In this document: piece after piece, positions 35,001 to 57,440 of the stretch
How positions within the stretch are numbered: position 1 is the stretch's first letter
Layout of the letters: every line of letters starts with the position of its first letter
IMG/VR virus record: IMGVR_UViG_3300032325_000466
Span: 64,001 to 128,000 of that record
From: a virus
Strand: one strand, 5' to 3'
DNA length: 64,000 bases
Position numbers and translations under genes: made by a program
Notes under the pieces: generated by a model
What the model was told of the DNA's origin: nothing
The model's input: the letters and a program-made list of their open reading frames with translations, nothing else
The model's database searches: none

Positions 35001-38000
35001 AGACAGGTAAAACACTATCCGATACCGTATGCGAATCTTATATTGGATTACCAACAGCAACCGGTATCGCTTATATGGCTCCCATACAACCAAATGTATT
35101 TGGATTGTATAACAGTGGAGATTATATAAATGCAAATGACTCAGTGCTACATATTGGCTTTGCCACAAGTAGAAATGATGATGTTTCACATAGCTCATAT
35201 AATTTAATAAAAGCCAATTATGCTAGCGACTTTTTACCAGGATTGCCAGGTGTAGGTAGTGCCATAGAACCTGAATCGCTATACCTAAAAATGATAGACA
35301 GTTTATCAGGTGTAGATACTGCAGGCGGCATAGTTCCTGATCCATTCTTACCAAAGCCAGTGCAAAGCGGTATCCTATCTCGCCCACGCCAAAGCTTCTT
35401 TTATAATAGATTTAAGGCGCTACAGAATTATCTTGAATACGCGAACACAGTACTTGCACAATTCCCTATCTTAGAGATAAGAAATGGAAATCTTTCATTC
35501 TTATATAAAGTAGGTGAAGTTAACAAGTCTACTGATCCTGTATATAATACAGACCCAACAAGCCCATATTACAGTCCCGACCCATGGACAGGTCCCATAC
35601 TACCATTCTATGATACAACTGATTACTGGACACCAATTAATTGGTGGGCAACTGGTTATAACGATAATACTAAATCGTCATTACTAGTTCCTCTATATAG
35701 TGATCTAAGTACTATTGGCAATCCTCAAAATGGATTAATAGTAACTGTGGCTGAAAACGGTGCTGGCAGTCAAGAAACATATAGATATGTAGCTCCTGTT
35801 GGCGACACTGCAGGATATTGGGTAAGAATAGGTTTACAAAATGGTACTATAAAATTTAACAGTTCTTTATGGGATTACGCTACTGCAAGAATAGGATTTG
35901 GTGATAGTTTCTTTGATACCCAGCCATATGATTATTACCCATCAGCAGAAACTAGAAATATAATTAGATCGTTGAATGAAGAAATTTACATTGGTGAACT
36001 ACTAATCTTTAGAAATAAAAGTCTAATATTACTGTTTGAATATATCCAAAGCGAAACAGTTGAATCGCAGAATTATATGCCATGGTTGAATAAAACATCA
36101 TTTATAGATGTATCCCATACTATACGCGAACTATTACCGTTAAGAGTATTTAGGTCTGATAATCAAGTATTCTTATCAGGGTATATAAACGAAGCCAAAC
36201 CATATCATGTAGTAATTAAAGACTTTATCTTTAACTATACTCGCACTGATCTTTATAACAGCGATATAACCGATTTTGATTTACCTGCAAAGTATAATAC
36301 AGACTACGATCAATTTATTACACCAATGTTAGTTTATAGTGGAGCGGATGATATCAATGAATTCTTACCAACTGATCCTATATGGCAATCACCAGACTAT
36401 ACAACATGGTATAACAATTATGGATTAAGTCTATCTACTGTTTATAAGTATCCAATGACTACGGTAGCATCATACCTTAATTTGGTAAGTGATAATTTAT
36501 ATGTAAATAATGTGTCTGGTTTCCCAGTAACTGGTACAGTATTAATAGGTACTGAATTGATTGGTTACACTGGTATTGATACTGCATACAATATACTAAC
36601 TGGATTGACACGCGGGGTTAAAGATACTCTAGTTCAAAATCATATATATGGAGAACAAATTTACATTGATTTGCCTCCTATATTAGTTTTAAATAGCGGA
36701 AGAGAATATACCGTTCCTCCTAAGGTTACTGCATACATAGATACTAGTGTCTATCCTGCACCAAGAGTTGCTGCTATACTAACACCCATAATGTCTTTTG
36801 ATAAAGTTATAGGTGTTCAGGTAGTAAATTCAGGCTCAGGTTATGCAGTTTTACCCGAAATTGTATTCGAACCAGCCCTTATAGAGAACTTTACTAGCAC
36901 AGGAGTAGACACTGATCTAAACTATATTGCGCTTACTACTACTGGATTAGTAACGGGTGATTTAGTAAGATATGATGTAGGTACTGATACTGAACCAGTT
37001 AGTGGACTTCAAGTGGGCGCATACTACTATGTAAATTTACTACAAACTACACCAACAAATGTTATTGCACTTTATACTAATTATGTTGATGCTATTCAAG
37101 ATCATAACAGAGTTAATCTGTATACTCAAGGAAGTGGCGACAATAATATATTAGCATTAACTGCGGTAGCAAGTTGCACTACAACATCACAGCCTGTTCG
37201 TGAAAATATAACTACTCTTAGATTTGATAGAACTTCTTATAACTCTTCACTGCAAACATGGCAACCAGGACAATTTTATGGTTCTAAGTATACCGGGGAT
37301 TTAAGTCTTACTAAGTTAGCTAGCTCATCTTTACTATTGCAATCTACCAACCCACCGATATCTGAGATATTGGCTAGTGCCCAAGGACAAACTTTTGAAA
37401 TACTAGAAGTTAGAAATGTAGAAACTTATACTTGGTCATCACGCACACGCTCAGTGTTTGCAACTACTAGCCCTGATCGTATTACGGTTATGTCATCTGC
37501 TGGTGGCGACTCGCTTAATCCCACTTTAGGATTTTATGTAGATATGCCCATTAAGTTTGAGGGTGAGGAATTTGGTGGACTAAGTGTTGGAGTTACTTAT
37601 TATGTTACCGATGTATACAACAACCTTGAATTCTCAGTATCTGAAACAATCGGCGGCATGCCCATTACTCTTACCACTGAGTCTGCACCATCGGCTGGTC
37701 TACTAGCAATAACAGGTACGCTTACAAATCAAGCAGTAATTAAATTGTTTTATCCAGGTATATTAAAAGCAACTGCTACAACTAAAATAACTAATATTGT
37801 TACCGTACCACTATTACCCACTGGGTTAGGCGGAACTCAAGGATTCTACACAGGGTTACCAATATACTTTACAGGAAGGAACGTACAAGCTGGTAGCTTT
37901 GTAATAGGTAAAGGGTATACCATAGTTAGTGTAGGTACTACTGATTTTACATTATGCGGGGCATCGGCTAACGAGATAGGTGTTCAATTTACTGCAACAT

Positions 38001-41000
38001 CTGTGGGTACTGGAACAGGTGTAGTATCAACTGTATTTGGCGATGTAATTGCTAATATAGAGTTTTATGTTACTACTGTTATTGACGCAGAGAATTTTAC
38101 AATGTCTTATACCAGTACTCCTACTGAGACAACTCTGTATGCAACTACTGCTGGAACAAATTATGTGACTGTAGAAAGCGTAAATGGATTTAATGTAAAT
38201 GATCCTATAATCTTTACTAATATGCAAATTGCAGGTACTAGGGTTACAGACTTTGGAAATATCCAAGCAGGCATAGTTTACTATGTACAGTCAATAATTA
38301 ATGGTACTCAAATTCAAATTTCTACTCAATTTAATGGTGCAGCGTTAACCCTTACTACAGTGGCAGTAGCAACCGACACTAATGGTACAATAACTAATCA
38401 AAGTGAGAATGTACAATTAAATAATGCAATTGGAGAAATGACTTTAGTAGCTGGTCTGCCAATTAGCCCTGGTCAAATTAATGGCCAACGATTTGCCTTT
38501 TACCCAACCTCAAACGCATTCACTGGTGTTAGTGGTATAACAAGTGACTTATTAACAAGAACTATTACAGCAGCAGTAAGTACCAATAATGGTTTATATT
38601 TAGCTATCAGTACTGGTGGAATATCGGATGTGTATATAAATATGCCGTTTATAGTTCAAACAGCAATTGGTGGATTGTTGACAGGTACTACATATTATGT
38701 TAGAAGTACAGGCACATTAACCACTACTGTAACCAATACTACTACTTCTACTAACAGGTTAACTTGTAGTACAACAGCAGGATTTTATGAAGGTATGGCA
38801 ATAAAATTCTCAGGTGCGGTATTTGGTGGAATAACTCCAAATCTTACATACTTTATATTATCAATAGTTGATGGAAACACATTTACTATTTCTAATGACA
38901 TAGGCGGTACTGAAGTTACTCTATCTACTAGTGTTGGTAGTATGCTGCTGACCGGGGAACAGTATATCACTGTAAATGATGGAGCAGGCTCCCAAGTATT
39001 CTTATCTGATGATATTGCTTTCGTCACTCTAGACCAGTACCCAACCTCACCCCCAACATTCAATGTTGGATATACTGCAGGTGGATATTTCGTACAAGTA
39101 GCAACTCCAGGTACAGGTTATGCAGTAAACAATACTATTACGGTTGATGGTGCTCAATTAGGTGGAGAATCAGGTACAAATGATTTAACAATGACAGTAT
39201 ATGAAATATCATCAATTGGTGAAGTTGTTACAGTTATTAGTACCGGTGCACCAGCTGGAATAAATGCAAATTATTACTTAAAAGTCATATCAGAATATGA
39301 ATGTGAACTTTACTACAACTCATCATTATCTATTCCAGTACCAGGATCACAATTCCCATTTAATGGTATTACTCAAACTACAGTTACTGGGGTAACTGCT
39401 GCAACCAATGAACTTACTGTAAACAGTTCAGCGAGTTTTGCTATTAATGACCCTGTTGTATTCACTGGAGATGTATTTGGTGGAATGATATTGGGAGAAA
39501 CTTATTATATTAAAACAAAACCATCACCAACAACAGTAACTATTTCAACATTCCCAAATGGTACAGTATTTGATATTACCGCAGATGAGACAGGCGATTG
39601 TATAATGGCTACTGTAGGCGATGTTAGCTTATTGCCTGACCCATTCTATGCTACTCAAAGTATAGTTATTTACAATAACAAAGTATATCAGTGTGCAGTA
39701 AGTAACAACGATGATGATTTTGTTTTCCGTAAATGGCAATTAATGGACAGTGGGGATAGACAATTAAACGCACTTGACAGAATAGTGGGCTACTATCAAC
39801 CTACTATTAATATGCCTGGTCTAGATCTTACACAGTTAGTAGCTAATATTGTTTACCCAAATAATACTTACTTAGATAACGCATTTGCTCCAGCAGATGA
39901 GTACCCCTATGATACACTACTATTAGATAACACCTTTACTCAAGTCAATGACAATATATACACAGTACAGGGTGATGAATTTACGGCTGGTTATGGTCCT
40001 GAAGAATTAGTACCAGGCATAGTAACTGACAATCTAACAATGATTGTAAAAACACGCCCAGGTAGTAATTGGGAATCTACTGTTTATCAGAATGTGGGAT
40101 ATAATTCAGTTTCTACCGAGATTACTCCAGCACAACCTGATCAAGTACTATACTCATTTGTAAATGTTGTAATAAACCCAATACAAATATCAGTGTTTGA
40201 TATTGATACTACCACAAAACTAAGCACAAGATTGTATGATTACACTATAGATTGGATTAATAAAGTAGTTACACTATCTACTCCGCTAGCAGAGAACCAC
40301 ATACTTAGAATTGATGTATATGAAGTAGGTAATGGTGACCAGCTAGTTCGTTCAAATTCACAAACTACCCCATTCTTCTTAAATGAAGATACTCAATTTA
40401 GTGAAATTTATTTAGACTGCCTCTACTCTGCTTCTATCACTAATGGATCAGGATTAATCATACCTGGTAGTGCACCAAGTTCAATTGAAGCAATTGAAAC
40501 CAGCGCAACAGATAACACTATTTTATGCTTATCAGTATCTTCATTTACTCTTAATGCTCCAATTACTTTCCAAGGCGCAGTTTTTGGCGGTGTCGCACTA
40601 GACACTACATACTATGTTAAAACAGCAAGCGCAATTACAGACAGAATAACAATATCTGATACACTAGTTGCTGGTATAGCAGGTCCTACCCTAACGCTAA
40701 CATCAGCTACAGGTAGTATGCAAGCGATTATTCAAGCTGATAACGGTTTAGTTTGGACAGATCCAATCATTGTTCATAATGGTACAAGATTAACATTGGG
40801 TGAGCAAAGCTTTGTCACACAAACTAAGAGTAGCACAAATTCAATAGTTTGTAACTCTACGGCTCACTTTGACTTAAATGATACCGTTACTTTTAGTGCA
40901 ACAATGTTTGGTGGCATTATACAACCTAACACGGTATACTATATCGCTACCATCGTAGATGATAACGATTTTACTATTTCAGAAACTCTAGGTGGACCTA

Positions 41001-46527: not shown

Positions 46528-46980
46528 TGTTCGTTGAAAGGTTCATCATAAGCACATACGCTGATAGCAAGCGACTAAGGCAGCTATGCGAAATCTTAGT
46601 TTAATGTGTGCTTTTGATGAATCAGTAGAGGAATTCGTTGAGGGTAACCTCTAGAAGTCGTTATTGGACTAGCTGTGGACGTGGGTTCGATTCCCACCGG
46701 GTCCACCAAAAGTATACTACTTGATTGGTTGACTACCCAAGGTTATCGTTGATAGAGAATTAGTCGCTCAGTAGATAACAAGTGTACTTCTGATGGGCCT
46801 GACCTGGTTTCGACATGGTTAGAAAGGAACGATTAGAATCGGCAATGTTAAAGCCGTTAGGGTTGGGATTTCTCGGCCGTAGAGACAAAAAACTATAAAT
46901 GCTAACGCATCTAACGATGAGGTTTTCGCTCTAGCAGCGTGATCTCCGGGGTTGACAACCTTGTAACCAAATAGTCAGGA
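46528..46980 (+). ncRNA. ssrA: Circularly permuted (two-piece) tmRNA: acceptor piece to CCA at 46708, intervening segment 46709-46794, coding piece from 46795
   Basis: T arm GTGGG-TTCGATT-CCCAC and CGGGTCC-A-CCA lie upstream of 5' end GGGCCTGACCTGGTTTCGAC; acceptor stem has G3-U70; helix 2 CATGGTTAG/CTAGCTGTG; tag frame 46901-46942 ANASNDEVFALAA-stop; outer ends approximate. Confidence 0.92.
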
Positions 46981-46981
46981 A

Positions 46982-47007
46982 AGGCTCGCAAGGGCCTTTT
47001 CTTTTGG
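46982..47007 (+). terminator. Intrinsic terminator after tmRNA
   Basis: aggctc-gcaa-gggcct stem followed by a T run. Confidence 0.85.
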
Positions 47008-47677: not shown

Positions 47678-48460
47678 ATGAAAAAAATTCTAATGTGCGA
47701 TCCCCGATTCTTTGGGGTTACTTATGATATCAACCCATGGATGTCTAGTAATATTGGGTGTGTAAATCAATCACTTGCTCGTGAACAATGGACTCTATTG
47801 CGAGATGCTATCTCAAGTGTAACTGAAGTAGAAGTATTGCCGGGAGTAGAAAATTTACCCGATTTAGTTTTTACTGCCAATGCTGGCATTGTTAGAAAAA
47901 ATCAAGCAATCGTAGCTAAGTTTAGCAAATCTGAACGGCGTGCAGAAGAAGAGCATTTTAAAAAATGGTTTAGTGAGCATAAGCTAATCACTGTTCAAAC
48001 TGTTCATTCATATGAGGGTGAAGGTGATCACCTAGTAGATAAATTAGGCCGTCATTGGCTGGGTACTGGCTTTAGAACAGATGGTAAAGTAGCTGAAGAA
48101 TTGACTAGAATTCTATGGGTTCGTATGAATACATTAGAGTTAGTTGATCCTCGCTGGTATCATTTAGATACTTGTTTTGCACCTTTACCATATGGTGAAG
48201 TAATTTGGTATCCTGGTGCATTTTCAGAGAGTAGCCAACAACTTATTCGCAGCGCATTTAGAACTAGGATAGAAATAAGTGAAGAAGATGCTAGTGCATT
48301 TGCTTGCAATTTGGTAGCACTGGGTAATAATATCTTTCTTCCCAAGAACTTTGGTGCATCAGACCGATTACAGGGTCTTGGTTACAAAGTCCAAGAATTT
48401 GATTTAAGCGAATTTATGCGAGCAGGTGGCGCAGCCAAATGCTTGACGCTATACTATTAA
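47678..48460 (+). CDS. Amidinotransferase/pentein family, arginine dihydrolase-like (ArgZ/AgrE N-domain)
   Basis: INPWM, PDLVFTAN, ER..E, EGEGD, GFR, YHLDT, FACN, GGAAKCLTL motifs. Confidence 0.8.
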   Translation: MKKILMCDPRFFGVTYDINPWMSSNIGCVNQSLAREQWTLLRDAISSVTEVEVLPGVENLPDLVFTANAGIVRKNQAIVAKFSKSERRAEEEHFKKWFSEHKLITVQTVHSYEGEGDHLVDKLGRHWLGTGFRTDGKVAEELTRILWVRMNTLELVDPRWYHLDTCFAPLPYGEVIWYPGAFSESSQQLIRSAFRTRIEISEEDASAFACNLVALGNNIFLPKNFGASDRLQGLGYKVQEFDLSEFMRAGGAAKCLTLYY

Positions 48461-48577: not shown

Positions 48578-48877
48578 ATGACAAAAGTGTATATGGTTGA
48601 TATAGATAACACTATCTGCATAAGCAAAGGTAATGACTATGCTAACAGCGAACCATTAATAGATCGTATTGCAAAAATAAATGAGTTGGTAAAACAAGGT
48701 CACAAAGTCATTTATTGGACAGCGCGAGGCAGTAGCAGTGGAATAGATTGGACAAACGAAACACACAGTCAACTAACAGCCTGGAACTGTGAATACCATG
48801 AAATTCATATGGGAAAACCATCATATGATATATGGATAGACGACAAGGCTATTAATTCAGAGGATTTTTTCAAGTGA
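48578..48877 (+). CDS. Small HAD phosphatase (capsule-biosynthesis type)
   Basis: VDIDNT, WTARG, GKP..D..IDDK motifs. Confidence 0.85.
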   Translation: MTKVYMVDIDNTICISKGNDYANSEPLIDRIAKINELVKQGHKVIYWTARGSSSGIDWTNETHSQLTAWNCEYHEIHMGKPSYDIWIDDKAINSEDFFK

Positions 48878-50865
48878 ATATTTTAATTTTCTCCCACAGT
48901 TGTAATCTCGGCGGAGCAGAGAATGCACTAATTTGTTTGGTATCAGAATTAAGTGCTAAACATACAGTAACAATATCTTTCCCTAATGCACAAGGTCCAC
49001 TAATAGATTATTTTACTAGAAAGAATATTAGATGCGTGTCGTTACCTCTAGGATTCTCCCTCCCCAATCCACATGACGCCTTGGTTAAGTTTTCACAAGT
49101 ATGTAATGATAATGTAATCGAACAAATACGAGAATTAAATTTCGACATGATCATATGCAATACTATAGTTACTTTGCATGGATTACTATTAGCAAAAATT
49201 TTAAAAATTCCAAGTATATTGTATGCACATGAAAAATTAGAGTTTGATACTGATTTAGCACCTCACGGATGTTCCTCTAGGTTTTATTTAGATTTGGTGG
49301 GAATGGCGTCCAATCATATTATGTGTACCTCCGAGTATGTTAAAAAATCATTTACTCAATTTAATAATAAAGCTAGTGTATTGTATATGTTTGATCAACA
49401 TATACAGTCGATAGAAACACCAGTTATGAATGATGACTTGGTTTCTATTTCGGTGATAGGTATAAAATCGATTAGAAAAAACACGCATTTCGCAATAACG
49501 GTATTAAAAGCCTTGCGTCTAAGGGGAATGAACGCTGAATTACATTTAATTGGTCAAAATGGTTCTGGAATGCATTTATTAGAGCAGAAGTTAAAAATTC
49601 GCGGAGAACCAAATATCCATGTATACCCTAATCAACCCGATCCGTATGCAATTGGAAAAGGTAAAAAGATAACATTAATAACAGCTATTTGTGAACCGTT
49701 TGGATTAACCATGATGGAATCATTGTTCAGGGGTATCCCTGTTGTTGCATCGAAATGCGGTGGCCCGGAAGAGGTATTACCAAAATCATATCTATATGCA
49801 GTAAATGATTTGGAGTCATGTGTTCGAAATATAGAAGAAGTGGTGTCAAACTATAAAACTCACGCTAATACGGCTAAGAAAACTTATAACAATTTTATAA
49901 AAAAACATCCTAAAAAAGAAATATCTGATGTTATCTCATCGGCAATTGACAGCGCAAAACAGGATTTTAGTAAAAATGGTAACGGATCTACTTCAATTAA
50001 GTGGGAAGATTTTAAATTCTTGGTAGAAAGTCCATTGTCCAATGAGGATATTGTAAAAAATATAGCAGAAGTTACAAAGACCACTACTGATGTCATAGAA
50101 ATTCAATTGACAAAAGAACGTGTAACACCCGGGATATCCGTGCTGAATGATATTCGTAAGTTTGATGTTGTCCCCTATACCATATCCGACAACTTGACAA
50201 ATCTTTACAAAGAAGGCACCGGACTAGCAATTGAATTATTATCTTCTATAGGTGATAGTGGAAAAATTTCCATGCTAAGTTATATATTGTTAGCTCTAAA
50301 AGAAAAACAACAGATTAACCCAATAAAAAAAGTACTGTGTTTAGGCGATGGTATAGGAATAGATGCGATTAGGTTTGCACAATGCGGATATGAGGTTGAT
50401 TATCTTGATTTTGATTCTTCAAAAATGGCAAAAATTGCAGAATTAAACTTTAAAAAAATTAAAGAAAATAATCCCACACTAAAATTAAACATTGTAAAAA
50501 CGCCCACACAAAAATATGATGTAATTATATCACTTGAAGTTATCGAGCATGTAGACGATCCTGTTGATTTTTTAAAGTTTATTCATAGTATGATGAACGA
50601 TGATGGATTTTTGTTTATTTCCGAATGTTTTGATGGTATATATGATGTTTGGCCTACACATATACTAAAACATGAAGAATTTTCTAATTTACTACCTTTA
50701 TTGGCAAGTCCTTACTTTAAATTAGTAGATATAAATAACACCTACTTTGGAAAACCATATATGTTTCAAAAAATAGACGCAGTGTCATCTGATGTATTGG
50801 ATTTTCTAAAAAATAGAGAATGGGTGATAAATTTTATAAATACAAAACTTAAAATTGGAATTTAA
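48874..50865 (+). CDS. GT-B glycosyltransferase fused to a class I SAM methyltransferase
   Basis: GGAE, EPFGL..MES..GIPVVAS.CGGP.E in the N half; VLCLGDGIG, YD.I.SLEV.EHV.DP in the C half. Confidence 0.8.
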   Translation: MNILIFSHSCNLGGAENALICLVSELSAKHTVTISFPNAQGPLIDYFTRKNIRCVSLPLGFSLPNPHDALVKFSQVCNDNVIEQIRELNFDMIICNTIVTLHGLLLAKILKIPSILYAHEKLEFDTDLAPHGCSSRFYLDLVGMASNHIMCTSEYVKKSFTQFNNKASVLYMFDQHIQSIETPVMNDDLVSISVIGIKSIRKNTHFAITVLKALRLRGMNAELHLIGQNGSGMHLLEQKLKIRGEPNIHVYPNQPDPYAIGKGKKITLITAICEPFGLTMMESLFRGIPVVASKCGGPEEVLPKSYLYAVNDLESCVRNIEEVVSNYKTHANTAKKTYNNFIKKHPKKEISDVISSAIDSAKQDFSKNGNGSTSIKWEDFKFLVESPLSNEDIVKNIAEVTKTTTDVIEIQLTKERVTPGISVLNDIRKFDVVPYTISDNLTNLYKEGTGLAIELLSSIGDSGKISMLSYILLALKEKQQINPIKKVLCLGDGIGIDAIRFAQCGYEVDYLDFDSSKMAKIAELNFKKIKENNPTLKLNIVKTPTQKYDVIISLEVIEHVDDPVDFLKFIHSMMNDDGFLFISECFDGIYDVWPTHILKHEEFSNLLPLLASPYFKLVDINNTYFGKPYMFQKIDAVSSDVLDFLKNREWVINFINTKLKIGI

Positions 50866-50885
50866 ATTTATGAAGGCATATTAAA

Positions 50886-51854
50886 GTGATAGTAACATCA
50901 TGTCCTTTAAGGATATCATTAGTAGGAGGATCAACTGATCATCCACATTTTATTAATAAGTACGGACAAGGATCTGTCATCAGTTTCCCTTCAACTCTTC
51001 GGACTTATATAACTATTCACCAAGATATTTTTGGTAGTAATTCTATAGGTAATAATTATCATATTAACTATAGCAAACGAGAAACGGTAAAAAAAGTATC
51101 CGAAATTCAAAATGAATTAATACGATATTGTTTTGAATATCTCAACGTAGATAAAATGAATTGCAGTTTAACCTCTGATATTTACAGTGCCGGTTCAGGT
51201 TTAGCAGCAAGTTCTTCTTATTTACAAGCATTAATAAAAGCCATATATGTATTGCGTGAAGAACATATAACTGAATTCGAAGTATGTAAAATGGCAGAAA
51301 TTATAGAAAGAAATTTTAATCCATTGGTAGGCCAACAAGATTTCTATGGTAGTATTGGTGGATTGAAACGAATTGATTTCTTTAAAAACAGTGACCCTAG
51401 CATCCGTTATTTAAGTACAAACATATTCAAACAATTGAACATATATTTACTATATACAGGAGTGTTACGCAGTAGTACCAATATATTAGAAAGTATAAAT
51501 ATAGACAAATCAGTGCCTTTATTGCAAGATGTTGAAGATTTAGAGATAGCTATAAAAAATTGTGATATTGAAATGTTTAGTAATGTTATCAATCGCGGCT
51601 GGGAAAATAAAAAAGCTACTAGCAATTTAATATGCGAATCTTCTACACTTGAAGAATTAGATAGTAAACTCAAAAATGATCCTGATATACTAGCACACAA
51701 ATTATGCGGTGCTGGTAATGGTGGATATTTTTTAATTTTTACTAATTTGAATAGTGGATTTGATTCAGCTAAATATGATATGATGAAAGCTATCAGCTTA
51801 TCAGAAACCGGACTAAAATATATTAATTTAAAAAATGAATTTACAAAACTTTAA
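50886..51854 (+). CDS. hddA: GHMP sugar kinase (HddA-like heptose-7-phosphate kinase)
   Basis: PLRISLVGGSTD, GSGLAASS, VGQQD, KLCGAG.GG motifs; GTG start. Confidence 0.75.
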   Translation: MIVTSCPLRISLVGGSTDHPHFINKYGQGSVISFPSTLRTYITIHQDIFGSNSIGNNYHINYSKRETVKKVSEIQNELIRYCFEYLNVDKMNCSLTSDIYSAGSGLAASSSYLQALIKAIYVLREEHITEFEVCKMAEIIERNFNPLVGQQDFYGSIGGLKRIDFFKNSDPSIRYLSTNIFKQLNIYLLYTGVLRSSTNILESINIDKSVPLLQDVEDLEIAIKNCDIEMFSNVINRGWENKKATSNLICESSTLEELDSKLKNDPDILAHKLCGAGNGGYFLIFTNLNSGFDSAKYDMMKAISLSETGLKYINLKNEFTKL

Positions 51855-52332
51855 ACATTGTCTTGACAATATAAATCAAGATGACCTATATAAATTAAAA
51901 CAATACATTCTTGGTGCAAAAAACGTAATTATTTTGGGTAATGGTGGCAGCAATGCTGTTAGTTGTCATATTGCACAAGATTATACAAAGGCGTTAGGAA
52001 TCAGAGCTACAGCATTTGGAGACAGTTCCAGAATGAGTTGTTATGCTAATGATTATGGTTGGGAGAATGCGTATACTAAATATTTAGAACATTTCGCAGA
52101 TTCGGATACCATAGTGATACTAATATCATCTTCTGGTAACTCACAAAATATACTTAATGCTGCTGGATACTGTGCGGGTAAACATGATATGATTACTCTA
52201 TCCGGATTTAATCATGCCAATAAATTAAGAACAGTGTATGGTCCATTATCTTTGTTACATTTTTACATCCCCAATACTGATTATGGAATTGTAGAATTAC
52301 TTCACGAACTTATTTTACATTCTGTTATATGA
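51835..52332 (+). CDS. gmhA: SIS-domain phosphoheptose isomerase-like protein
   Basis: GNGGS.A...HIA.D, ANDYG, ISSSGNS.NI, YG.VE..H motifs. Confidence 0.8.
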   Translation: MNLQNFKHCLDNINQDDLYKLKQYILGAKNVIILGNGGSNAVSCHIAQDYTKALGIRATAFGDSSRMSCYANDYGWENAYTKYLEHFADSDTIVILISSSGNSQNILNAAGYCAGKHDMITLSGFNHANKLRTVYGPLSLLHFYIPNTDYGIVELLHELILHSVI

Positions 52333-52468: not shown

Positions 52469-53176
52469 ATGAAAAAAATCTTACTAGCATCACTAATCAT
52501 GGCTGCATTTGGTAGCGCACACGCTCAAGTAGCAGGTCTATCAGGAAACCTAGGTCTAACTACTGACTATCGTTTTCGTGGTATTTCTCAAACTCAAAAT
52601 GGTGCAGCCGTTCAAGGTGGCATAGACTACGCTCATAAGAGCGGCTTTTATGTTGGCAACTGGAACAGTTCAGTTAGTAGCGCACTATTTCCCGCTAGCG
52701 CCGGCATCGAAAGCGATCTATATCTAGGCTTTAAGAAAGAAGTTTTCAAAGGCGTAACAATCGATGTTGGTACAATGAGCTATGTTTATTCACGCGCATC
52801 AAGCTTTGGTACTAGCGAAGTTTATGCTGGTGTAGGTTATGGTCCAGTTACTGTAAAAGTTAGCCAATCACTAAGCAACTATTTTGGTGTAGCAGATAGC
52901 GTAGGTTCACGCTACTACCAAGCTGACCTAGCACAGCCAATCACTAGCAAGATCACTCTAGGTGCTCATGTTGGTCGTACATTTGTCAATAACAACACTT
53001 CACTAGACTATACTGACTATCGTGTTGGTGCATCTTATAACGCAGCTGGTTGGGTATTTGGTGCAAATTTCCACACTAACAACAACTATGGTAGCAGTGC
53101 TAAAGCTGCTATGACAGTTGCAGGTCAGTCACTATACAAAAACACCGTTGTACTATCAGTAGCAAAATCATTCTAA
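52469..53176 (+). CDS. TorF/TIGR02001-family outer-membrane beta-barrel protein
   Basis: Signal peptide ..AHA; TTDYRFRGISQT..AVQGG.DY.H.SGFY.G.W; C-terminal Phe. Confidence 0.85.
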   Translation: MKKILLASLIMAAFGSAHAQVAGLSGNLGLTTDYRFRGISQTQNGAAVQGGIDYAHKSGFYVGNWNSSVSSALFPASAGIESDLYLGFKKEVFKGVTIDVGTMSYVYSRASSFGTSEVYAGVGYGPVTVKVSQSLSNYFGVADSVGSRYYQADLAQPITSKITLGAHVGRTFVNNNTSLDYTDYRVGASYNAAGWVFGANFHTNNNYGSSAKAAMTVAGQSLYKNTVVLSVAKSF

Positions 53177-53242: not shown

Positions 53243-53692
53243 ATGTCAGTCACACTAAAAAATTTAGAATCGGCTTTAGCCGGTGAATCTATGGCACATA
53301 TCAAGTACCGATATTTTGCCAAACTAGCCCGAGCAGAAGGCTATGAAGAAGTAGCCAAACACTTTGAACACACTGCTGACCAAGAGCTACTACATGCTTG
53401 GGGTCATCTTGAACTGCTAATTGGTAAACCATCTACTAAAGAATGTTTGGAAAAAGCAATCGAAGGAGAGACCTACGAGTTCACCGTGATGTATCCAGAG
53501 TTCGAAGCAGTTGCTAGGAACGAAGGAAATGAAGAAGCAGTTCGTGAAGCCGTGGAACAAATCGCTGAATCCATGGAACATGCCGCACAATTCGCAGCAG
53601 TTTTGGCTAAAGCAGAAAAGCGTTTTTCAGCACTCAAGCGTGTAGAAGAGCGTCATGCAAATGCTTATAAACAAACTTTAGGGAGTCTATAA
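53243..53692 (+). CDS. rbr: Rubrerythrin (diiron domain only)
   Basis: AGES.A..KY..FA..A..EG, E..HA, EGE.YE..MYP, E..HA motifs. Confidence 0.9.
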   Translation: MSVTLKNLESALAGESMAHIKYRYFAKLARAEGYEEVAKHFEHTADQELLHAWGHLELLIGKPSTKECLEKAIEGETYEFTVMYPEFEAVARNEGNEEAVREAVEQIAESMEHAAQFAAVLAKAEKRFSALKRVEERHANAYKQTLGSL

Positions 53693-53826
53693 TGAGAGAA
53701 CAATACGCATGTGTCATTTGTGGCCATCAACATGATGAAGAAACAGAAGGTAAATGGGAAGACTTACCTGAAGATTTTATGTGCCCTGAATGCGGCGGAC
53801 TAAAACAAGACTACGAAGCTATTTAA
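53692..53826 (+). CDS. rub: Rubredoxin, 44 aa
   Basis: Not in ORF track; MREQYACVICGHQHDEETEGKWEDLPEDFMCPECGGLKQDYEAI with two CxxCG; TAATG overlap. Confidence 0.9.
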   Translation: MREQYACVICGHQHDEETEGKWEDLPEDFMCPECGGLKQDYEAI

Positions 53827-53830
53827 TTAC

Positions 53831-53866
53831 GGGCCCGCAAGGTAAAATTTGCCTTTGCGGGCTTTC
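53831..53866 (+). terminator. Hairpin/terminator after rubredoxin
   Basis: gcccgcaagg...cctttgcgggc stem with a short T tail. Confidence 0.6.
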
Positions 53867-53870
53867 CTAT

Positions 53871-53888
53871 ATGTAATTTGCATGTAAT
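53871..53888 (+). promoter_or_regulatory. Putative Pho box (PhoB site)
   Basis: ATGTAAT-TTGC-ATGTAAT: two 7-mers with 11 bp period, each matching CTGT(C/A)A(C/T) at 6/7; followed by TGnTAAAAT (53898-53906). Confidence 0.65.
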
Positions 53889-53921
53889 ACTTAGTATTGT
53901 TAAAATACGATAAATATTAGT

Positions 53922-54701
53922 ATGACAAAAAAATATAGAACAATAACAGTCAGTGATGTGCATCTGGGCACCAAAAATTGTAAAGCCGAACTACTTGTAG
54001 ATTTTCTAAGTGAAAACACTTGTGAAACACTGTATTTGGTTGGTGATATAATCGATGCATGGAAAATCCAACAGAATAGGCTAAAGTGGCGCCAAAGCCA
54101 TACCGATGTTGTTCGTAAAATTCTAAAACATGCTAGAAATGGTACTAAAGTAATTTATGTAGCAGGCAATCACGACGAGTTTTTAAGACCAATGATACCA
54201 TATGGTGTTAGCTTTGGTACCATTGTAATATGCAATCAAGCTACTCATATCGGCGCAGATGGTAAAAAGTATTTAGTAGTACATGGCGATTTGTTTGATG
54301 GTATCACTAGATTAGCGCCATGGTTAAGTTTCTTAGGCGACAGAGCATATGATGTTATTTTGGATCTAAATAGCAGGTTCAATTGGATTAGACATCGTAT
54401 GGGTTTTGGTTATTGGAGCTTAAGCCAATTCTTAAAACACCGAGTAAAAAAAGCTATTGATTTTATGTTTCAGTTTGAAAGAACTATTACCGCTTATGCC
54501 AAGAAGCGTGGTTTTCAGGGCGTAATATGTGGGCATATACATAAAGCTGAAATTAAAGAAGTAAATGGTATTACATACATGAATGATGGTGACTGGGTAG
54601 AAAGTTGTACCGCCCTAGTAGAACATCATGATGGCAGTTGGGAAATAATACGTTGGGCACAGGACAAAAAAGATGTGGCTGATGATTCTTCTAGCAGTTA
54701 A
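53922..54701 (+). CDS. plcP: PlcP-like phospholipase C (COG2908 metallophosphoesterase)
   Basis: SDVHLG, LVGDIID.W, GNHDE, HGD.FD, GYWSLS, CGHIH, N.GDWVESCTALVE; GNHD rather than the LpxH GNRD; neighbour is agt. Confidence 0.8.
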   Translation: MTKKYRTITVSDVHLGTKNCKAELLVDFLSENTCETLYLVGDIIDAWKIQQNRLKWRQSHTDVVRKILKHARNGTKVIYVAGNHDEFLRPMIPYGVSFGTIVICNQATHIGADGKKYLVVHGDLFDGITRLAPWLSFLGDRAYDVILDLNSRFNWIRHRMGFGYWSLSQFLKHRVKKAIDFMFQFERTITAYAKKRGFQGVICGHIHKAEIKEVNGITYMNDGDWVESCTALVEHHDGSWEIIRWAQDKKDVADDSSSS

Positions 54702-54852
54702 TATTACAAACCCGCAAGATATACCGGGTAAAATAACACTAGAATTTCCTACCCAACAAGCGTGTGAGCAAAGCTTACAAACTATGCGATACCAATTAAA
54801 ATTCAATGGTTTTAAAGTCGAGGGAAAATGCATAAAACAATACTCATCGTAA
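54673..54852 (+). CDS. Small 59 aa exported/membrane protein with two Cys
   Basis: Not in ORF track; MWLMILLAVNITNPQDIPGKITLEFPTQQACEQSLQTMRYQLKFNGFKVEGKCIKQYSS; overlaps both neighbours. Confidence 0.6.
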   Translation: MWLMILLAVNITNPQDIPGKITLEFPTQQACEQSLQTMRYQLKFNGFKVEGKCIKQYSS

Positions 54853-55844
54853 CAGATAACTTACCAACTCAAATCAATGGCGTGGTCACAACTTTCAAGA
54901 ACATTCAAACTCACGCTGATCGTGATGGGTACGATCTTGTTTATCTTGACCCCGGGCAGTTTTACCATATTGATTGTCCTGGCTACCCTGAGGTTAAACT
55001 CTCCTTACCTTGGAAAATTGGCAAAAAGATCAAGGCGTTATCTCCCGATTATATTCACATTGCTACGGAAGGGCCGGTAGGCTTAGCCGCTAGAATTTGG
55101 TGCGATATGAATGGGTATTCATATAATACTTCATATCATACTAAATTCCCAGAATTTCTTAAAAAGATATATGGTATCCCCGAGGGCTTTACTTATAGAT
55201 ATGTTCGTTGGTTTCATAAACATAGTGGTAGAGTATTAACAACTACACAGTCTATGGTCGATCAGTTATATGATCATAAATTTAAAACTAACATAGTAGC
55301 TTGGACTAGGGGAGTAGATCGTGAATACCTACAGCCAAGTCGAGTATGGAATCACGATCATTATATAGGTCTAAAGCCACTAGTATTATATGTAGGTCGT
55401 GTAAGTAAAGAAAAGAATTTAGATGCACTATGTAAACTACAACATAAATATAAAATTCATATCGTAGGAGACGGTCCTGATCGTGCGAGATTAGAACGGG
55501 AATATACTGATGTAGAGTTTTTAGGATACAAAACAGGTCAAGCGTTGGCAGATTGTTATGCTTGGGCTGATGTATTTGCTTTTCCCAGTTTAGTTGACAC
55601 ATTTGGCATAGTTATTATAGAATCTCTAAGCTTAGGAACACCTGTAGCAGCATATCGTGTACAGGGCCCACTTGATATCTTAGAAGAGGGCGTAACAGGG
55701 TACATGTGTGATGATCTAGCTACTAGTATAGATCAGTGTTTATTACTAGACCGAGATCAAGTCAAACAATCTAGTGAACGATGGACTTGGGAAAATTGCT
55801 GGGAAGTCTTTAAAGAAAATTTAACGGAACTAGAAAATAAATAA
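54828..55844 (+). CDS. agt: Agt-like GT4 diacylglycerol glycosyltransferase
   Basis: IVTD...QINGVV, CP.YPE..L, IHIATEGP.GL.AR, TSYHT.FPE, RWFH, VGRVSKEKNL, ADVF.FPS..DTFG motifs. Confidence 0.8.
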   Translation: MHKTILIVTDNLPTQINGVVTTFKNIQTHADRDGYDLVYLDPGQFYHIDCPGYPEVKLSLPWKIGKKIKALSPDYIHIATEGPVGLAARIWCDMNGYSYNTSYHTKFPEFLKKIYGIPEGFTYRYVRWFHKHSGRVLTTTQSMVDQLYDHKFKTNIVAWTRGVDREYLQPSRVWNHDHYIGLKPLVLYVGRVSKEKNLDALCKLQHKYKIHIVGDGPDRARLEREYTDVEFLGYKTGQALADCYAWADVFAFPSLVDTFGIVIIESLSLGTPVAAYRVQGPLDILEEGVTGYMCDDLATSIDQCLLLDRDQVKQSSERWTWENCWEVFKENLTELENK

Positions 55845-55848
55845 CATC

Positions 55849-56103
55849 ATGGAAATAAAGCAAGCAACTGATTGGCAAACAGTATCAACTAAAATCAGGC
55901 GAGAGTTAAACGACATAAAGTATAACCCAGACCTATACAAAATGCTAAAAAACATTGACGCAATGGTAACTGAGATTTCTAAGCTAGAAGTTATCTATCG
56001 CAGGGCTATCTCTAGGCCCGCACTAGACGCTAAGTTAGCAGACGCTAACAAAGCTATCACACATTTAGAAAAATTGATCCTCATGGCCAAGCTTATGAAC
56101 TGA
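55849..56103 (+). CDS. Hypothetical protein
   Basis: 84 aa ORF; TAAATA 55838-55843 5 nt upstream. Confidence 0.6.
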   Translation: MEIKQATDWQTVSTKIRRELNDIKYNPDLYKMLKNIDAMVTEISKLEVIYRRAISRPALDAKLADANKAITHLEKLILMAKLMN

Positions 56104-56930: not shown

Positions 56931-57440
56931 ATGAGTATTGTATTAGAAGCAAGCTTATCCAGAGTTTGGCAACATTTTAATAGTGACCGCCCAGTTGCAT
57001 TGCTAACTGGTTTTAGGGGTGAGTACACTAGAGAAGAGAATCTGCGTAGAAACGCGGCTTTAGCGGCCGACATTAGAAATCTTGGCCTTGGGTTCTTTTA
57101 TGTAGATGGATACTGGATAGAAAATCAGGGCACTCCCGAAGAACGCAAAGTCAGTGAAGATAGTATTTTTGTAATAGGTGAACCTAGTACTGATGAAAAA
57201 TTTTTGGACACTATTGTAAAATTTGGCCGTCAGTATGATCAAGATGGCGTCTTGGTAAAAACAGAAGATACTGTAGCTATCTATGATAAGAATGGTGAAG
57301 TGCTGTACCCGCTCAATAAATTGAATCCTGGAAAACTGGGAACAATGTATACTAAACTAAGAAATAACAAACATACCAATACCTTTGTCTTTACTGAAGA
57401 ACGGGTTGATCGTGGTTGGGCCGGCCGTTTTACCGCTTGA
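56931..57440 (+). CDS. S-adenosylmethionine lyase (T3 SAMase-like) homolog
   Basis: LTGFRG..E.N.RR, GYWIE, EDSIFV, YDQDGVLV line up by eye with T3 SAMase VSAFRS..VN..R, GCYRE, EKTVRV, WEQDCVLV; TAAATA at 56902-56907. Confidence 0.65.
   Translation: MSIVLEASLSRVWQHFNSDRPVALLTGFRGEYTREENLRRNAALAADIRNLGLGFFYVDGYWIENQGTPEERKVSEDSIFVIGEPSTDEKFLDTIVKFGRQYDQDGVLVKTEDTVAIYDKNGEVLYPLNKLNPGKLGTMYTKLRNNKHTNTFVFTEERVDRGWAGRFTA

What the first reader, a model, noticed from the sequence alone, without database searches (positions are those of the whole stretch)
53922..55844. Phage-encoded phospholipid-to-glycolipid remodelling operon (plcP + agt)
Seen: a COG2908 phosphoesterase with GNHD followed by a GT4 enzyme with the HIATEGP/SYHT.FPE/RWFH motifs. 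Known: in Sinorhizobium, Agrobacterium and SAR11, PlcP cuts phospholipids to diacylglycerol and Agt glycosylates it to P-free glucosyl/glucuronosyl lipids under phosphate starvation; the two genes are often adjacent. Inference: the phage mines host membrane phosphorus for its own DNA while keeping the membrane intact, and may also change surface properties. I know of no characterised phage version, but could not search.
Basis: partly seen in the sequence, partly recalled or inferred. Interest (0 to 1): 0.88.

Follow-up and report, generated by a model that had tools for sequence, protein, structure and literature searches.

The report
Phage PlcP-Agt membrane lipid-swap cassette
A very large uncultured phage carries intact copies of the two bacterial enzymes that strip the phosphate head from membrane lipids and put a sugar in its place, plus a small unknown gene between them, behind a phosphate-starvation-type control site; it probably draws phosphorus from its host's membrane, and I found no paper describing this in a virus.

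Summary
Window 53922-54701 encodes a PlcP-type metallophospholipase C, not LpxH. Window 54828-55844 encodes an Agt-clade GT4 diacylglycerol glycosyltransferase. Both lie in a phage record of 191 kb, estimated 54% complete.

- **PlcP:** 49% identical to the S. meliloti PlcP ortholog and 52% to the P. aeruginosa PA3219 ortholog. It scores far below the LpxH equivalog cut-offs.
- **Agt:** 41% identical to P. aeruginosa Agt1. It keeps the clade-specific His/Asp dyad and both UDP-sugar motifs.
a 59-codon gene (54673-54852) overlaps both neighbours. It is conserved in 28 other distinct viral loci, folds confidently and matches no known family.
- **Distribution:** IMG/VR holds at least 597 viral stretches at 71-97% identity. 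They form one clade inside the PlcP family. Genuine cellular genomes reach only 50-58%.
- **Regulation:** a Pho-box-like direct repeat lies upstream of plcP here and in 23 of 66 related loci, followed by a phage TAAATA promoter-like motif.

Phosphorus mining under host PhoB control is the best reading, but it is inferred, not shown. I found no published description; databases and virome surveys label the gene lpxH. This scan has noted the same cassette on other DNA (155 notes, at least 114 genomes).

The parts
53832..53862 (+). Terminator-like G+C hairpin after the rubredoxin gene. It marks the upstream border of the cassette.
   Evidence: Read from the sequence: GCCCGCAAGG ... CCTTTGCGGGC followed by TTTCC. 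The simple scan did not list it because the stem has a bulge.
53871..53888 (+). Pho-box-like direct repeat, ATGTAAT-N4-ATGTAAT, period 11 bp.
   Evidence: Sequence. The pattern TGT[AC]A[CT]-N5-[TA]GT[AC]A[CT] occurs 4 times in the 191-kb record (1.1 expected), one of them here. It lies within 100 nt upstream of plcP in 23 of 66 non-redundant viral loci. Those 23 are most of the 37 hits in 1.3 million strand-bases. Some loci carry the canonical TGTCAC-N5-TGTCAT.
53898..53906 (+). Extended -10-like element TGnTAAAAT, with its TAAAAT hexamer 12 nt after the repeat.
   Evidence: Sequence. The promoter scan lists TTTGCA-18-TAAAAT with TG at 53877-53906. Consensus match only.
53911..53916 (+). TAAATA, a phage promoter-like motif 5 nt before the plcP ATG.
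   Evidence: TAAATA lies within 25 nt upstream of 21 of 192 ORFs of the record (about 2.6 expected), mostly 4-6 nt before the ATG, including the portal gene. It is present within 10 nt of the plcP start in 31 of 66 related loci.
53922..54701 (+). plcP: PlcP-type metallophosphoesterase phospholipase C (259 aa).
54673..54852 (+). 59-codon gene of unknown function. It overlaps plcP by 29 nt and agt by 25 nt. Small soluble beta-beta-alpha-beta protein.
   Evidence: Conserved in 28 other distinct viral loci, with invariant W2 D16 P18 F25 C31 K43 F44 F47 C53. dN/dS 0.18 against L082. AlphaFold2 pLDDT 91. No Pfam or PHROG family.
54828..55844 (+). agt: Agt/GTcp-clade GT4 diacylglycerol glycosyltransferase (338 aa).
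55849..56103 (+). 84-codon ORF starting 4 nt after agt with no terminator between. Possibly co-transcribed; function unknown.
   Evidence: Homologs in L082 (92%) and L107 (52%), and weaker ones near moxR in L125 and L132. No Pfam or PHROG family.

Best explanation
This is a phage-borne, three-gene version of the bacterial PlcP-Agt lipid-renovation operon. PlcP is a cytoplasmic, metal-dependent phosphoesterase with an LpxH-like helical lipid cap. It cuts the phospho-head group off host glycerophospholipids and leaves diacylglycerol. Agt transfers glucose and/or glucuronic acid from a UDP-sugar onto that diacylglycerol, so the membrane stays intact but free of phosphorus. The released phosphorus becomes available for the DNA of a very large phage, roughly 350 kb if the 54% completeness estimate holds. 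The cassette is read from a promoter that combines a host Pho-box-like PhoB site with a phage TAAATA element, so it should be expressed mainly in phosphate-starved hosts. The 59-residue protein translated between the two enzymes is a virus-specific accessory of unknown role. Shown here: the identity of the two enzymes at family level, intact catalytic residues, purifying selection, the phage context, wide distribution in viral contigs, and conservation of the upstream repeat. Inferred: substrates and products in this phage, PhoB binding, timing of expression, any benefit to the phage, and any role of the small protein.
For: PlcP identity:
- 49% identity (E 4e-90, full length) to the single S. 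meliloti homolog and 52% to the P. aeruginosa PA3219 ortholog. The characterised PlcPs share only 46-47% with each other (PMC8528852).
- All metallophosphoesterase metal ligands are invariant in 45 sequences: D12, H14, D42, N83, H84, H121, H205, H207.
- The LpxH equivalog models score 50 and 43 bits against cut-offs of 134 and 190.
- Two gammaproteobacterial genomes with a PlcP homolog also hold a true LpxH of 220-288 bits. In three alphaproteobacterial genomes the only match to the LpxH model was the PlcP homolog (38-41 bits, below the cut-off).
- In the trees LpxH is a very distant outgroup, and the viral sequences sit inside the PlcP family with the S. meliloti, P. aeruginosa, Ralstonia and Mitsuaria proteins.
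- The predicted fold is closest to LpxH over its full length, which fits a lipid substrate.

Agt identity:
- 41% identity (E 4e-92) to P. aeruginosa Agt1, which makes MGDG.
- It has GRVSKEKN and FPSLVDTFG with Asp at the catalytic position, as in GTcp and all 34 cellular Agts next to plcP.
- H104, T160, R161, R191, K196, T258, F259, G260, E265 and W319 are conserved.

Synteny: plcP is directly followed by agt in 31 of 66 cellular loci and in 28 of 58 distinct viral loci.

Regulation: the Pho-box-like repeat is enriched far above background in front of viral plcP, with fixed spacing of 10 or 20-21 nt to TAAATA.

Selection: dN/dS 0.06-0.18 for all three genes.

Phage context.

Related isolate: the Pelagibacter phage Mosig homolog sits next to pstS.
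Against: No biochemical, expression or infection data exist for any viral copy. The Pho-box reading rests on resemblance to the PhoB consensus and on conservation. The host is unknown, so its Pho box is unknown too. In this window the repeat is TGTAAT rather than TGTCAT, and its spacing to TAAATA is 21 nt, not the classic 10. The TAAATA motif is shared with structural genes such as the portal, so the cassette may simply be late-expressed whatever the phosphate status. No PstS, PhoH or Ugd was found in the 191 kb available, though 46% of the genome is missing. About 40% of related viral loci show no agt within reach, so the glycolipid step is not always phage-encoded. The head groups that PlcP releases still need host phosphatases to yield phosphate.
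Confidence: 0.66

Rival explanations
1. The enzymes are as identified, but the phage runs them on its own late timetable through the TAAATA promoter to change the envelope rather than to gain phosphorus. Possible aims are blocking superinfection, altering receptors or membrane-protein function, or preparing the membrane for lysis or for making a very large virion.
For: TAAATA 4-6 nt before the ATG is shared with the portal and other genes of this phage and with 31 of 66 related plcP loci. 43 of 66 related loci lack a strict Pho-box-like repeat. The cassette sits in an island of envelope-type genes: TorF-family porin, GT-methyltransferase fusion, GHMP kinase and SIS isomerase. Published work links lipid remodelling to phage attachment and membrane-protein changes (PMC9804370; PMC9938194 listed).
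Against: The repeat with PhoB-type 11-bp period is strongly enriched exactly at this promoter across diverged loci with different upstream genes. In bacteria the pathway is Pho-regulated (PMC8528852). The Mosig homolog lies beside pstS.
Confidence: 0.2
2. ORF1 is an LpxH-type UDP-2,3-diacylglucosamine diphosphatase, as databases label it, and the pair acts on lipid A or LPS.
For: JGI and GenBank name this protein and its homologs LpxH. LpxH is the best NCBIfam hit and the closest solved fold. Virome surveys list lpxH as an LPS auxiliary gene.
Against: Scores are 50 and 43 bits against equivalog cut-offs of 134 and 190. Identity to solved LpxH structures is only about 20%, against 49-52% to characterised PlcPs. 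True LpxH is a separate gene in genomes that also have a PlcP homolog. LpxH is joined to the PlcP family only by very long branches in the tree. The partner gene is an Agt-clade lipid glycosyltransferase.
Confidence: 0.03
3. The genes are a recent passenger, or the contig is a mis-assembled or mis-classified piece of a bacterial genome, so there is no phage function.
For: The genes are of cellular origin. The record is a metagenomic fragment rated 54% complete.
Against: The window holds portal, baseplate, virion and other phage genes on both sides of the cassette. At least 597 viral stretches carry the gene at 71-97% identity and form one clade. No genuine cellular genome among 185,579 species representatives exceeds 58%. 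The 75% 'Haliscomenobacter' contig carries phage DNA polymerase and endonuclease genes. Purifying selection is strong. The promoter carries the phage's own TAAATA motif.
Confidence: 0.02

Closest known systems
Bacterial PlcP-Agt lipid-renovation operon (P. aeruginosa PA3219-PA3218/Agt1; S. meliloti PlcP; Phaeobacter sp. MED193; SAR11 HTCC7211 PlcP and GTcp; A. tumefaciens Agt)
   Same: Same two enzyme families and the same gene order and orientation. 49-52% (PlcP) and 41% (Agt1) identity to characterised or orthologous proteins. All catalytic and substrate-binding residues are kept. There is a Pho-box-like element upstream.
   Different: It is encoded by a phage. A virus-specific 59-codon gene is wedged between the two enzymes and overlaps both. 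The promoter carries a phage TAAATA motif with almost no leader. The viral proteins form their own clade, no closer than 58% to any cell. Most viral Agts, though not this one, have changed the clade-specific Asp back to Glu.
LpxH (UDP-2,3-diacylglucosamine diphosphatase of lipid A synthesis)
   Same: Same metallophosphoesterase superfamily and the closest solved fold over its full length (TM about 0.6). Same metal-ligand motifs.
   Different: About 20% identity. Far below the equivalog cut-offs. A separate paralog in genomes that have both. Different substrate in the characterised relatives.
Phosphate-stress auxiliary genes of cyanophages and pelagiphages (pstS, phoA, phoH), some under host PhoBR control (established knowledge, not checked in a paper here)
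   Same: A host-derived phosphorus-acquisition function in a lytic aquatic myophage, behind a Pho-box-type site. In Pelagibacter phage Mosig the PlcP homolog lies beside pstS.
   Different: It acts on an internal phosphorus store, the membrane lipids, not on uptake from outside. No pstS or phoH was found in the part of this genome that is available.
PlcP homologs in isolated phages: Pelagibacter phage Mosig (Mosig_00120) and Synechococcus phage S-SRM01 (QPX48289.1), both annotated as LpxH
   Same: Same family: 47% and 34.5% identity.
   Different: Neither has an adjacent agt or the small gene. Mosig groups with Hyphomonadaceae-type PlcPs and S-SRM01 is far more distant, so these look like separate acquisitions. 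The papers I checked on these phages do not discuss the gene.

Membership tests
PlcP (metallophosphoesterase-type phospholipase C of lipid renovation) | Full-length similarity to experimentally characterised PlcPs at least as high as these share with each other (46-47%) | tested here: met
   49% (E 4e-90) to the single S. meliloti homolog. 52% to the P. aeruginosa PA3219 ortholog, which has agt1 next to it. The reference identities come from PMC8528852.
PlcP (metallophosphoesterase-type phospholipase C of lipid renovation) | Complete calcineurin-like metal-binding motifs (DxH, GD, GNHD/E, H, GHxH) | tested here: met
   D12, H14, D42, N83, H84, H121, H205 and H207 are invariant in 45 viral and cellular sequences. 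Pfam Metallophos.
PlcP (metallophosphoesterase-type phospholipase C of lipid renovation) | Falls with PlcPs and apart from LpxH in a tree | tested here: met
   The viral clade lies within the PlcP family, in an unresolved four-way split with the clade that holds the S. meliloti, P. aeruginosa, Ralstonia and Mitsuaria proteins. LpxH is a distant outgroup (SH-aLRT 99-100).
PlcP (metallophosphoesterase-type phospholipase C of lipid renovation) | Genomic linkage to a gene for a phosphorus-free lipid (agt, btaAB and the like) | tested here: met
   agt lies 126 nt downstream, bridged by the overlapping small gene. The same order occurs in 31 of 66 cellular loci.
PlcP (metallophosphoesterase-type phospholipase C of lipid renovation) | Pho regulation (Pho box in the promoter) | tested here: inconclusive
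   An 11-bp-period TGTAAT repeat lies at 53871-53888 and is conserved in front of plcP in 23 of 66 viral loci, against a background of about 0.001 per 100 nt. PhoB binding and the host's Pho box are unknown.
PlcP (metallophosphoesterase-type phospholipase C of lipid renovation) | Metal-dependent hydrolysis of PE, PG or PC to diacylglycerol | not testable with these tools
   Needs an enzyme assay or lipidomics.
Agt/GTcp clade of GT4 diacylglycerol glycosyltransferases | GT-B GT4 architecture | tested here: met
   Glyco_transf_4 (residues 51-166) plus Glycos_transf_1 (residues 183-296).
Agt/GTcp clade of GT4 diacylglycerol glycosyltransferases | Catalytic dyad His104-Asp256, with Asp in place of the usual GT4 Glu (PMC8231724) | tested here: met
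   H104 is invariant. D257 sits in FPSLVDTFG. All 34 cellular Agts next to plcP and P. aeruginosa Agt1 have Asp there. I mapped the residues by motif and through Agt1, because I did not have the GTcp sequence itself.
Agt/GTcp clade of GT4 diacylglycerol glycosyltransferases | UDP-sugar motifs GRVAXEKN and FPSXTDTFG | tested here: met
   GRVSKEKN (residues 190-197) and FPSLVDTFG (residues 252-260, Thr replaced by Val at the fifth position).
Agt/GTcp clade of GT4 diacylglycerol glycosyltransferases | Diacylglycerol-pocket residues Thr162, Arg163 and Trp320 of GTcp | tested here: met
   T160 and R161 are nearly invariant and W319 is invariant in 33 sequences. Mapped by position and motif only.
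Agt/GTcp clade of GT4 diacylglycerol glycosyltransferases | Similarity to a characterised member well above the <25% seen with other GT4 enzymes | tested here: met
   41% over 334 residues to P. aeruginosa Agt1. The best match among solved GT4 structures is only E 7e-9 over the C-terminal part.
Agt/GTcp clade of GT4 diacylglycerol glycosyltransferases | Makes MGlc-DAG and/or GlcA-DAG from UDP-sugar and diacylglycerol | not testable with these tools
   Needs expression and lipidomics. No ugd was found in the available 191 kb.
LpxH | Score above the NCBIfam equivalog cut-off (NF003743: 134 bits; TIGR01854: 190 bits) | tested here: not met
   50.2 and 43 bits. True LpxH proteins score 220-288 bits.

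The most novel reading that the evidence does not exclude
Virus-run membrane lipid renovation is a widespread, so far undescribed phage strategy. A large clade of big aquatic phages switches on its own PlcP, with or without Agt, through the host's phosphate-starvation regulator and converts the host membrane into a phosphorus store for phage DNA. The conserved 59-residue protein would be a virus-specific adaptor or regulator of PlcP with no cellular counterpart. If so, part of the 'lpxH / LPS biosynthesis' signal in virome surveys is really lipid-phosphorus mining.
Probability: 0.45. Interest if true: 0.78.

Novelty: new variant of a known kind. Interest (0 to 1): 0.62.

Why it matters
Known phage answers to phosphorus scarcity act on uptake (pstS, phoA). 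A phage-encoded route that frees phosphorus already locked in the host's membrane would be a different tactic. It would also link viral infection directly to the lipid composition of bacterioplankton, and so to grazing, phage attachment and the phosphorus budgets of lakes and oceans.

The gene is abundant in viral metagenomes but filed as lpxH under LPS biosynthesis, so auxiliary-gene surveys may be misreading it.

The cassette is small (about 1.9 kb, three genes), and assays already published for the bacterial enzymes could be applied to it.

The conserved small protein is a handle on how a phage adapts a borrowed pathway.

Tried and rejected
- **Complex prediction:** PlcP with the 59-residue protein, both as alignments, gave no verdict (score 0.17, mark 0.32). 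It says nothing either way about binding.
- **Fold searches for the 59-residue protein:** Foldseek against PDB found nothing at E <= 0.001. VIA-align wide gave a best Z of 5.7 (PurS, generic split beta-alpha-beta), which is within the noise range. The ESM Atlas returned only viral hypothetical clusters. Pfam and PHROGs gave nothing.
- **Other phosphorus genes in the 191-kb record:** PhoH, PstS-type binding protein and UDP-glucose dehydrogenase were not found. This is weak evidence, because about 46% of the genome is missing.
- **Other Pho-box-like hits in the record:** the hits at 26963(-) and 162237(-) lie before small unknown ORFs and the hit at 113102 lies inside a gene. With 1.1 expected by chance I did not read them as a regulon.
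- **Literature:** the search for plcP + phage gave 25 papers; none of the 20 listed describes a virus-encoded PlcP by title or abstract. The search for plcP + viral + auxiliary metabolic gave 0 papers. The search for LpxH + auxiliary metabolic + phage gave 8 papers; the two I opened only list lpxH as an LPS gene. In the search for 'phage-encoded' with lipid remodelling terms, none of the 12 listed papers holds 'phage-encoded'. The Mosig and S-SRM01 papers do not mention the gene. The library is open access only, so a subscription paper could have been missed.
- **N-terminal hydrophobic stretch of the small protein:** I considered a signal peptide or membrane anchor and rejected it. The stretch is 9 residues long and is modelled with high confidence as a core beta strand.
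- **Cellular donor of the viral clade:** not resolved. With the mixture model the viral clade sits in a four-way polytomy. The sister relation to a 2.6-kb Competibacteraceae contig seen was not stable.
Full report
**1. Is it there?**

Yes. The + strand holds ORFs at 53922-54701 (259 aa) and 54828-55844 (338 aa), exactly as stated. Pfam assigns Metallophos to the first, and Glyco_transf_4 plus Glycos_transf_1 to the second.

The window is phage DNA:
- portal (phrog_213, E 1e-103), baseplate hub, virion proteins, an SbcC-like nuclease and a MoxR/VWA pair;
- a 5702-codon ORF and a tmRNA gene;
- the source is an IMG/VR virus record of 191,027 bp that CheckV rates 54% complete. That suggests a genome of roughly 350 kb (inference).

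**2. A third gene**

A 59-codon ORF at 54673-54852 overlaps the last 29 nt of plcP and the first 25 nt of agt. It is real:
- Homologs of 55-61 residues (one of 70) sit right after plcP in 28 other distinct viral loci. Nine columns are invariant (W2, D16, P18, F25, C31, K43, F44, F47, C53) and the substitutions elsewhere look protein-like.
- dN/dS against the closest relative is 0.18.
- AlphaFold2 gives a confident beta-beta-alpha-beta model (pLDDT 91), in which the hydrophobic N-terminus is a core strand and not a membrane anchor.
- It has no Pfam or PHROG family and no convincing structural neighbour. Its only look-alikes in the ESM Atlas are clusters of viral hypothetical proteins.
- It occurs with and without agt: 14 and 12 of 58 distinct loci. 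No cellular plcP locus has it, apart from one 4.5-kb MAG contig that is 72-74% identical to the viral plcP.

**3. ORF1 is PlcP, not LpxH**

- The LpxH equivalog models of NCBIfam score 50 and 43 bits, against cut-offs of 134 and 190.
- PLSDB holds some mislabelled chromosomes, which gave me reference proteins. The phage protein is 49% identical over its full length (E 4e-90) to the only homolog in an S. meliloti chromosome record. It is 52% identical to the P. aeruginosa protein that is followed by a GT gene, which is the PA3219/PA3218 arrangement.
- Jones et al. 2021 report that PA3219 shares 46-47% with the S. meliloti and Phaeobacter PlcPs (PMC8528852). The phage protein is therefore as close to characterised PlcPs as they are to each other.
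- All metal ligands are invariant in an alignment of 45 viral and cellular sequences.
- Two gammaproteobacterial genomes that carry a PlcP homolog also hold a true LpxH of 220-288 bits. In three alphaproteobacterial genomes the only match to the LpxH model was the PlcP homolog, at 38-41 bits.
- In maximum-likelihood trees the two LpxH sequences join through very long branches (SH-aLRT 99-100). The viral sequences lie within the PlcP family together with the S. meliloti, P. aeruginosa, Ralstonia and Mitsuaria proteins.
- The predicted structure is closest to LpxH over its whole length (TM about 0.6, 20% identity), which fits a lipid substrate. No PlcP structure was among the matches.

**4. ORF2 is an Agt**

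- It is 41% identical (E 4e-92) to P. aeruginosa Agt1, the enzyme shown to make monoglucosyl-diacylglycerol.
- Wei et al. 2021 define the Agt/GTcp clade by a His104-Asp256 dyad (Asp instead of the usual GT4 Glu; D256E loses over 90% of activity), the motifs GRVAXEKN and FPSXTDTFG, and the diacylglycerol-pocket residues Thr162, Arg163 and Trp320 (PMC8231724).
- The phage protein has H104, GRVSKEKN, FPSLVDTFG with Asp257, T160-R161 and W319. All are conserved across 33 sequences. I mapped these by motif and through Agt1, because I did not have the GTcp sequence.
- All 34 cellular Agts found beside plcP have Asp at that site. Among 37 viral Agts, 12 (this one included) keep Asp and 24 have Trp-Glu instead. 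In a midpoint-rooted tree those 24 form a nested, apparently derived subclade.

**5. Distribution and origin**

The best 80 are 71-97% identical.
- Among one genome for each of 185,579 prokaryotic species, real cellular hits reach only 50-58%. They are mainly Alphaproteobacteria: Hyphomonadaceae, Rhodospirillaceae, Sphingomonadales and Roseomonas-type.
- The 75% 'Haliscomenobacter' MAG contig carries phage DNA polymerase and endonuclease genes and nests inside the viral clade, so I take it for a phage contig.
- The viral sequences form one group (SH-aLRT 96 with LG+G4, 86 with the mixture model). Their cellular sister is not resolved.
- Of 58 distinct viral loci with enough downstream sequence, agt is adjacent in 28, further along in 6 and not seen in 24.
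- Of the cellular loci, 31 of 66 have plcP directly followed by agt.
- Two isolated phages carry more distant homologs annotated as LpxH: Pelagibacter phage Mosig (47%, next to pstS) and Synechococcus phage S-SRM01 (34.5%). Neither has agt or the small gene next to it.

**6. Regulation**

I tested it by comparison.

- Upstream of plcP lie, in order: a terminator-like hairpin (53832-53862); the direct repeat ATGTAAT-N4-ATGTAAT (53871-53888, period 11 bp); TGnTAAAAT (53898-53906); and TAAATA (53911-53916), 5 nt before the ATG.
- The pattern TGT[AC]A[CT]-N5-[TA]GT[AC]A[CT] lies within 100 nt upstream of plcP in 23 of 66 non-redundant viral loci whose upstream genes differ. These 23 make up most of the 37 occurrences in 1.3 million strand-bases.
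- Some loci carry the canonical TGTCAC-N5-TGTCAT.
- The repeat ends either 10 nt or 20-21 nt before TAAATA. Ten nt is the classic distance from a PhoB box to the -10 element (established knowledge of E. coli pho promoters).
- TAAATA is also a motif of the phage itself. It lies within 25 nt upstream of 21 of 192 ORFs of the record (about 2.6 expected), usually 4-6 nt before the ATG, including the portal gene. That hints at leaderless or nearly leaderless messages.

The data fit dual control by host PhoB and the phage's own promoter type. Binding and transcript starts remain untested.

**7. Mechanism proposed**

In a phosphate-starved host, PhoB turns on the cassette. PlcP then cleaves PE, PG or PC to diacylglycerol plus a phospho-head group, and Agt glycosylates the diacylglycerol with a UDP-sugar. 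The three genes overlap, so they are probably translated as a unit. The membrane keeps its integrity while its phosphorus feeds nucleotide synthesis for a very large genome.

This is inference from the characterised bacterial pathway (PMC4796936, PMC8528852, PMC8231724). The role of the 59-residue protein is open. A complex prediction with PlcP gave no verdict.

**8. Rivals**

- Envelope remodelling on a late timetable, for superinfection exclusion, receptor change or lysis, is the serious rival (about 0.2). It shares the enzymology and differs only in purpose.
- The LpxH reading and the 'not a phage gene' reading are contradicted by the tests above.

**9. Novelty**

The enzymes belong to known families, and phosphate-stress auxiliary genes in phages are known. 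A virus-encoded lipid-renovation pathway is not described in any paper I could find. The two virome surveys I opened list lpxH only under LPS biosynthesis, and the papers on Mosig and S-SRM01 do not mention it. I rate it a new variant of a known kind.

This scan has already noted the same cassette on other DNA: 155 notes in at least 114 genomes. Follow-up agents reached similar conclusions, and one of them mentions the small partner gene. Those notes are not independent evidence; the tests reported here are my own.

**10. Host**

The host is unknown. The phage tmRNA matches the permuted betaproteobacterial model (RF01850, 92.9 bits; RF04321, 95 bits). That is a weak pointer to a betaproteobacterial host. 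Betaproteobacterial PlcPs (Ralstonia, Mitsuaria) are about 53% identical to the phage protein.

Noticed in passing
window 54673-54852: A 59-codon gene overlaps both plcP and agt. It belongs to a virus-only family of small proteins (beta-beta-alpha-beta fold, two invariant Cys) and follows plcP in related phages even where agt is absent.
   Followed up: yes
related viral loci, e.g. L084:6746-7756, L107:5242-6237: 24 of 37 viral Agts have replaced the clade-specific catalytic Asp (FPSxxDTFG) by Trp-Glu (FPSxWETFG), in one nested subclade of a midpoint-rooted tree. In GTcp the D256E change costs over 90% of activity, so this subclade may have a changed donor or acceptor.
   Followed up: partly
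window 3427-5226 (-), 22082, 47024, 47678, 53922, 55849 and others; whole record G000: TAAATA sits 4-6 nt before the ATG of about a dozen genes, including the portal (21 of 192 ORFs have it within 25 nt; about 2.6 expected). It looks like a phage promoter that gives leaderless or nearly leaderless mRNAs.
   Followed up: partly
window 46600-47002 (+): Phage-encoded permuted (two-piece) tmRNA. It matches Rfam beta_tmRNA (92.9 bits, gathering 84) and tmRNA_permuted (95 bits). ARAGORN reads the tag ANASNDEVFALAA. A possible clue to a betaproteobacterial host.
   Followed up: partly
window 53243-53692 and 53692-53826 (+): A rubrerythrin-like ferritin-fold protein (149 aa) is followed by a 44-residue rubredoxin whose ATG overlaps the stop (TAATG). 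This is a split rubrerythrin-type oxidative-stress pair in a phage, just upstream of the lipid cassette.
   Followed up: partly
window 52469-53176 (+): TorF/Gcw_chp-family putative outer-membrane porin (Pfam E 3.6e-48) encoded by the phage, with an N-terminus that looks like a signal peptide and a strong sigma-70-like promoter (TTGACA-17-CATAAT) upstream.
   Followed up: no
window 26003-43111 (+): A single ORF of 5702 codons next to baseplate and tail genes.
   Followed up: no
window 48578-52332 (+): A run of sugar-type genes: small HAD-like protein, GT4-methyltransferase fusion (663 aa), GHMP kinase and SIS-domain isomerase.
   Followed up: no
window 56931-57440 (+): The protein matches the S-adenosylmethionine lyase family (PF23780, E 2.5e-9). 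A possible anti-restriction function.
   Followed up: no
window 47678-48460 (+): DDAH/arginine-deiminase-superfamily enzyme (PF19420, E 3.3e-13) standing alone in the phage.
   Followed up: no
L171:2414-5480 (Mitsuaria sp. 7 record): In this betaproteobacterium plcP lies directly next to ppk1 and ppx (polyphosphate kinase and phosphatase), another link between PlcP and phosphorus housekeeping.
   Followed up: no
PLSDB records CP090106.1, NZ_CP115947.1, NZ_CP104127.1: Several 'plasmid' records of 2.3-3.7 Mb look like chromosomes or megaplasmids. One S. meliloti record of 3.7 Mb is labelled pSymB. Useful as a source of reference genes, but the labels should not be trusted.
   Followed up: no
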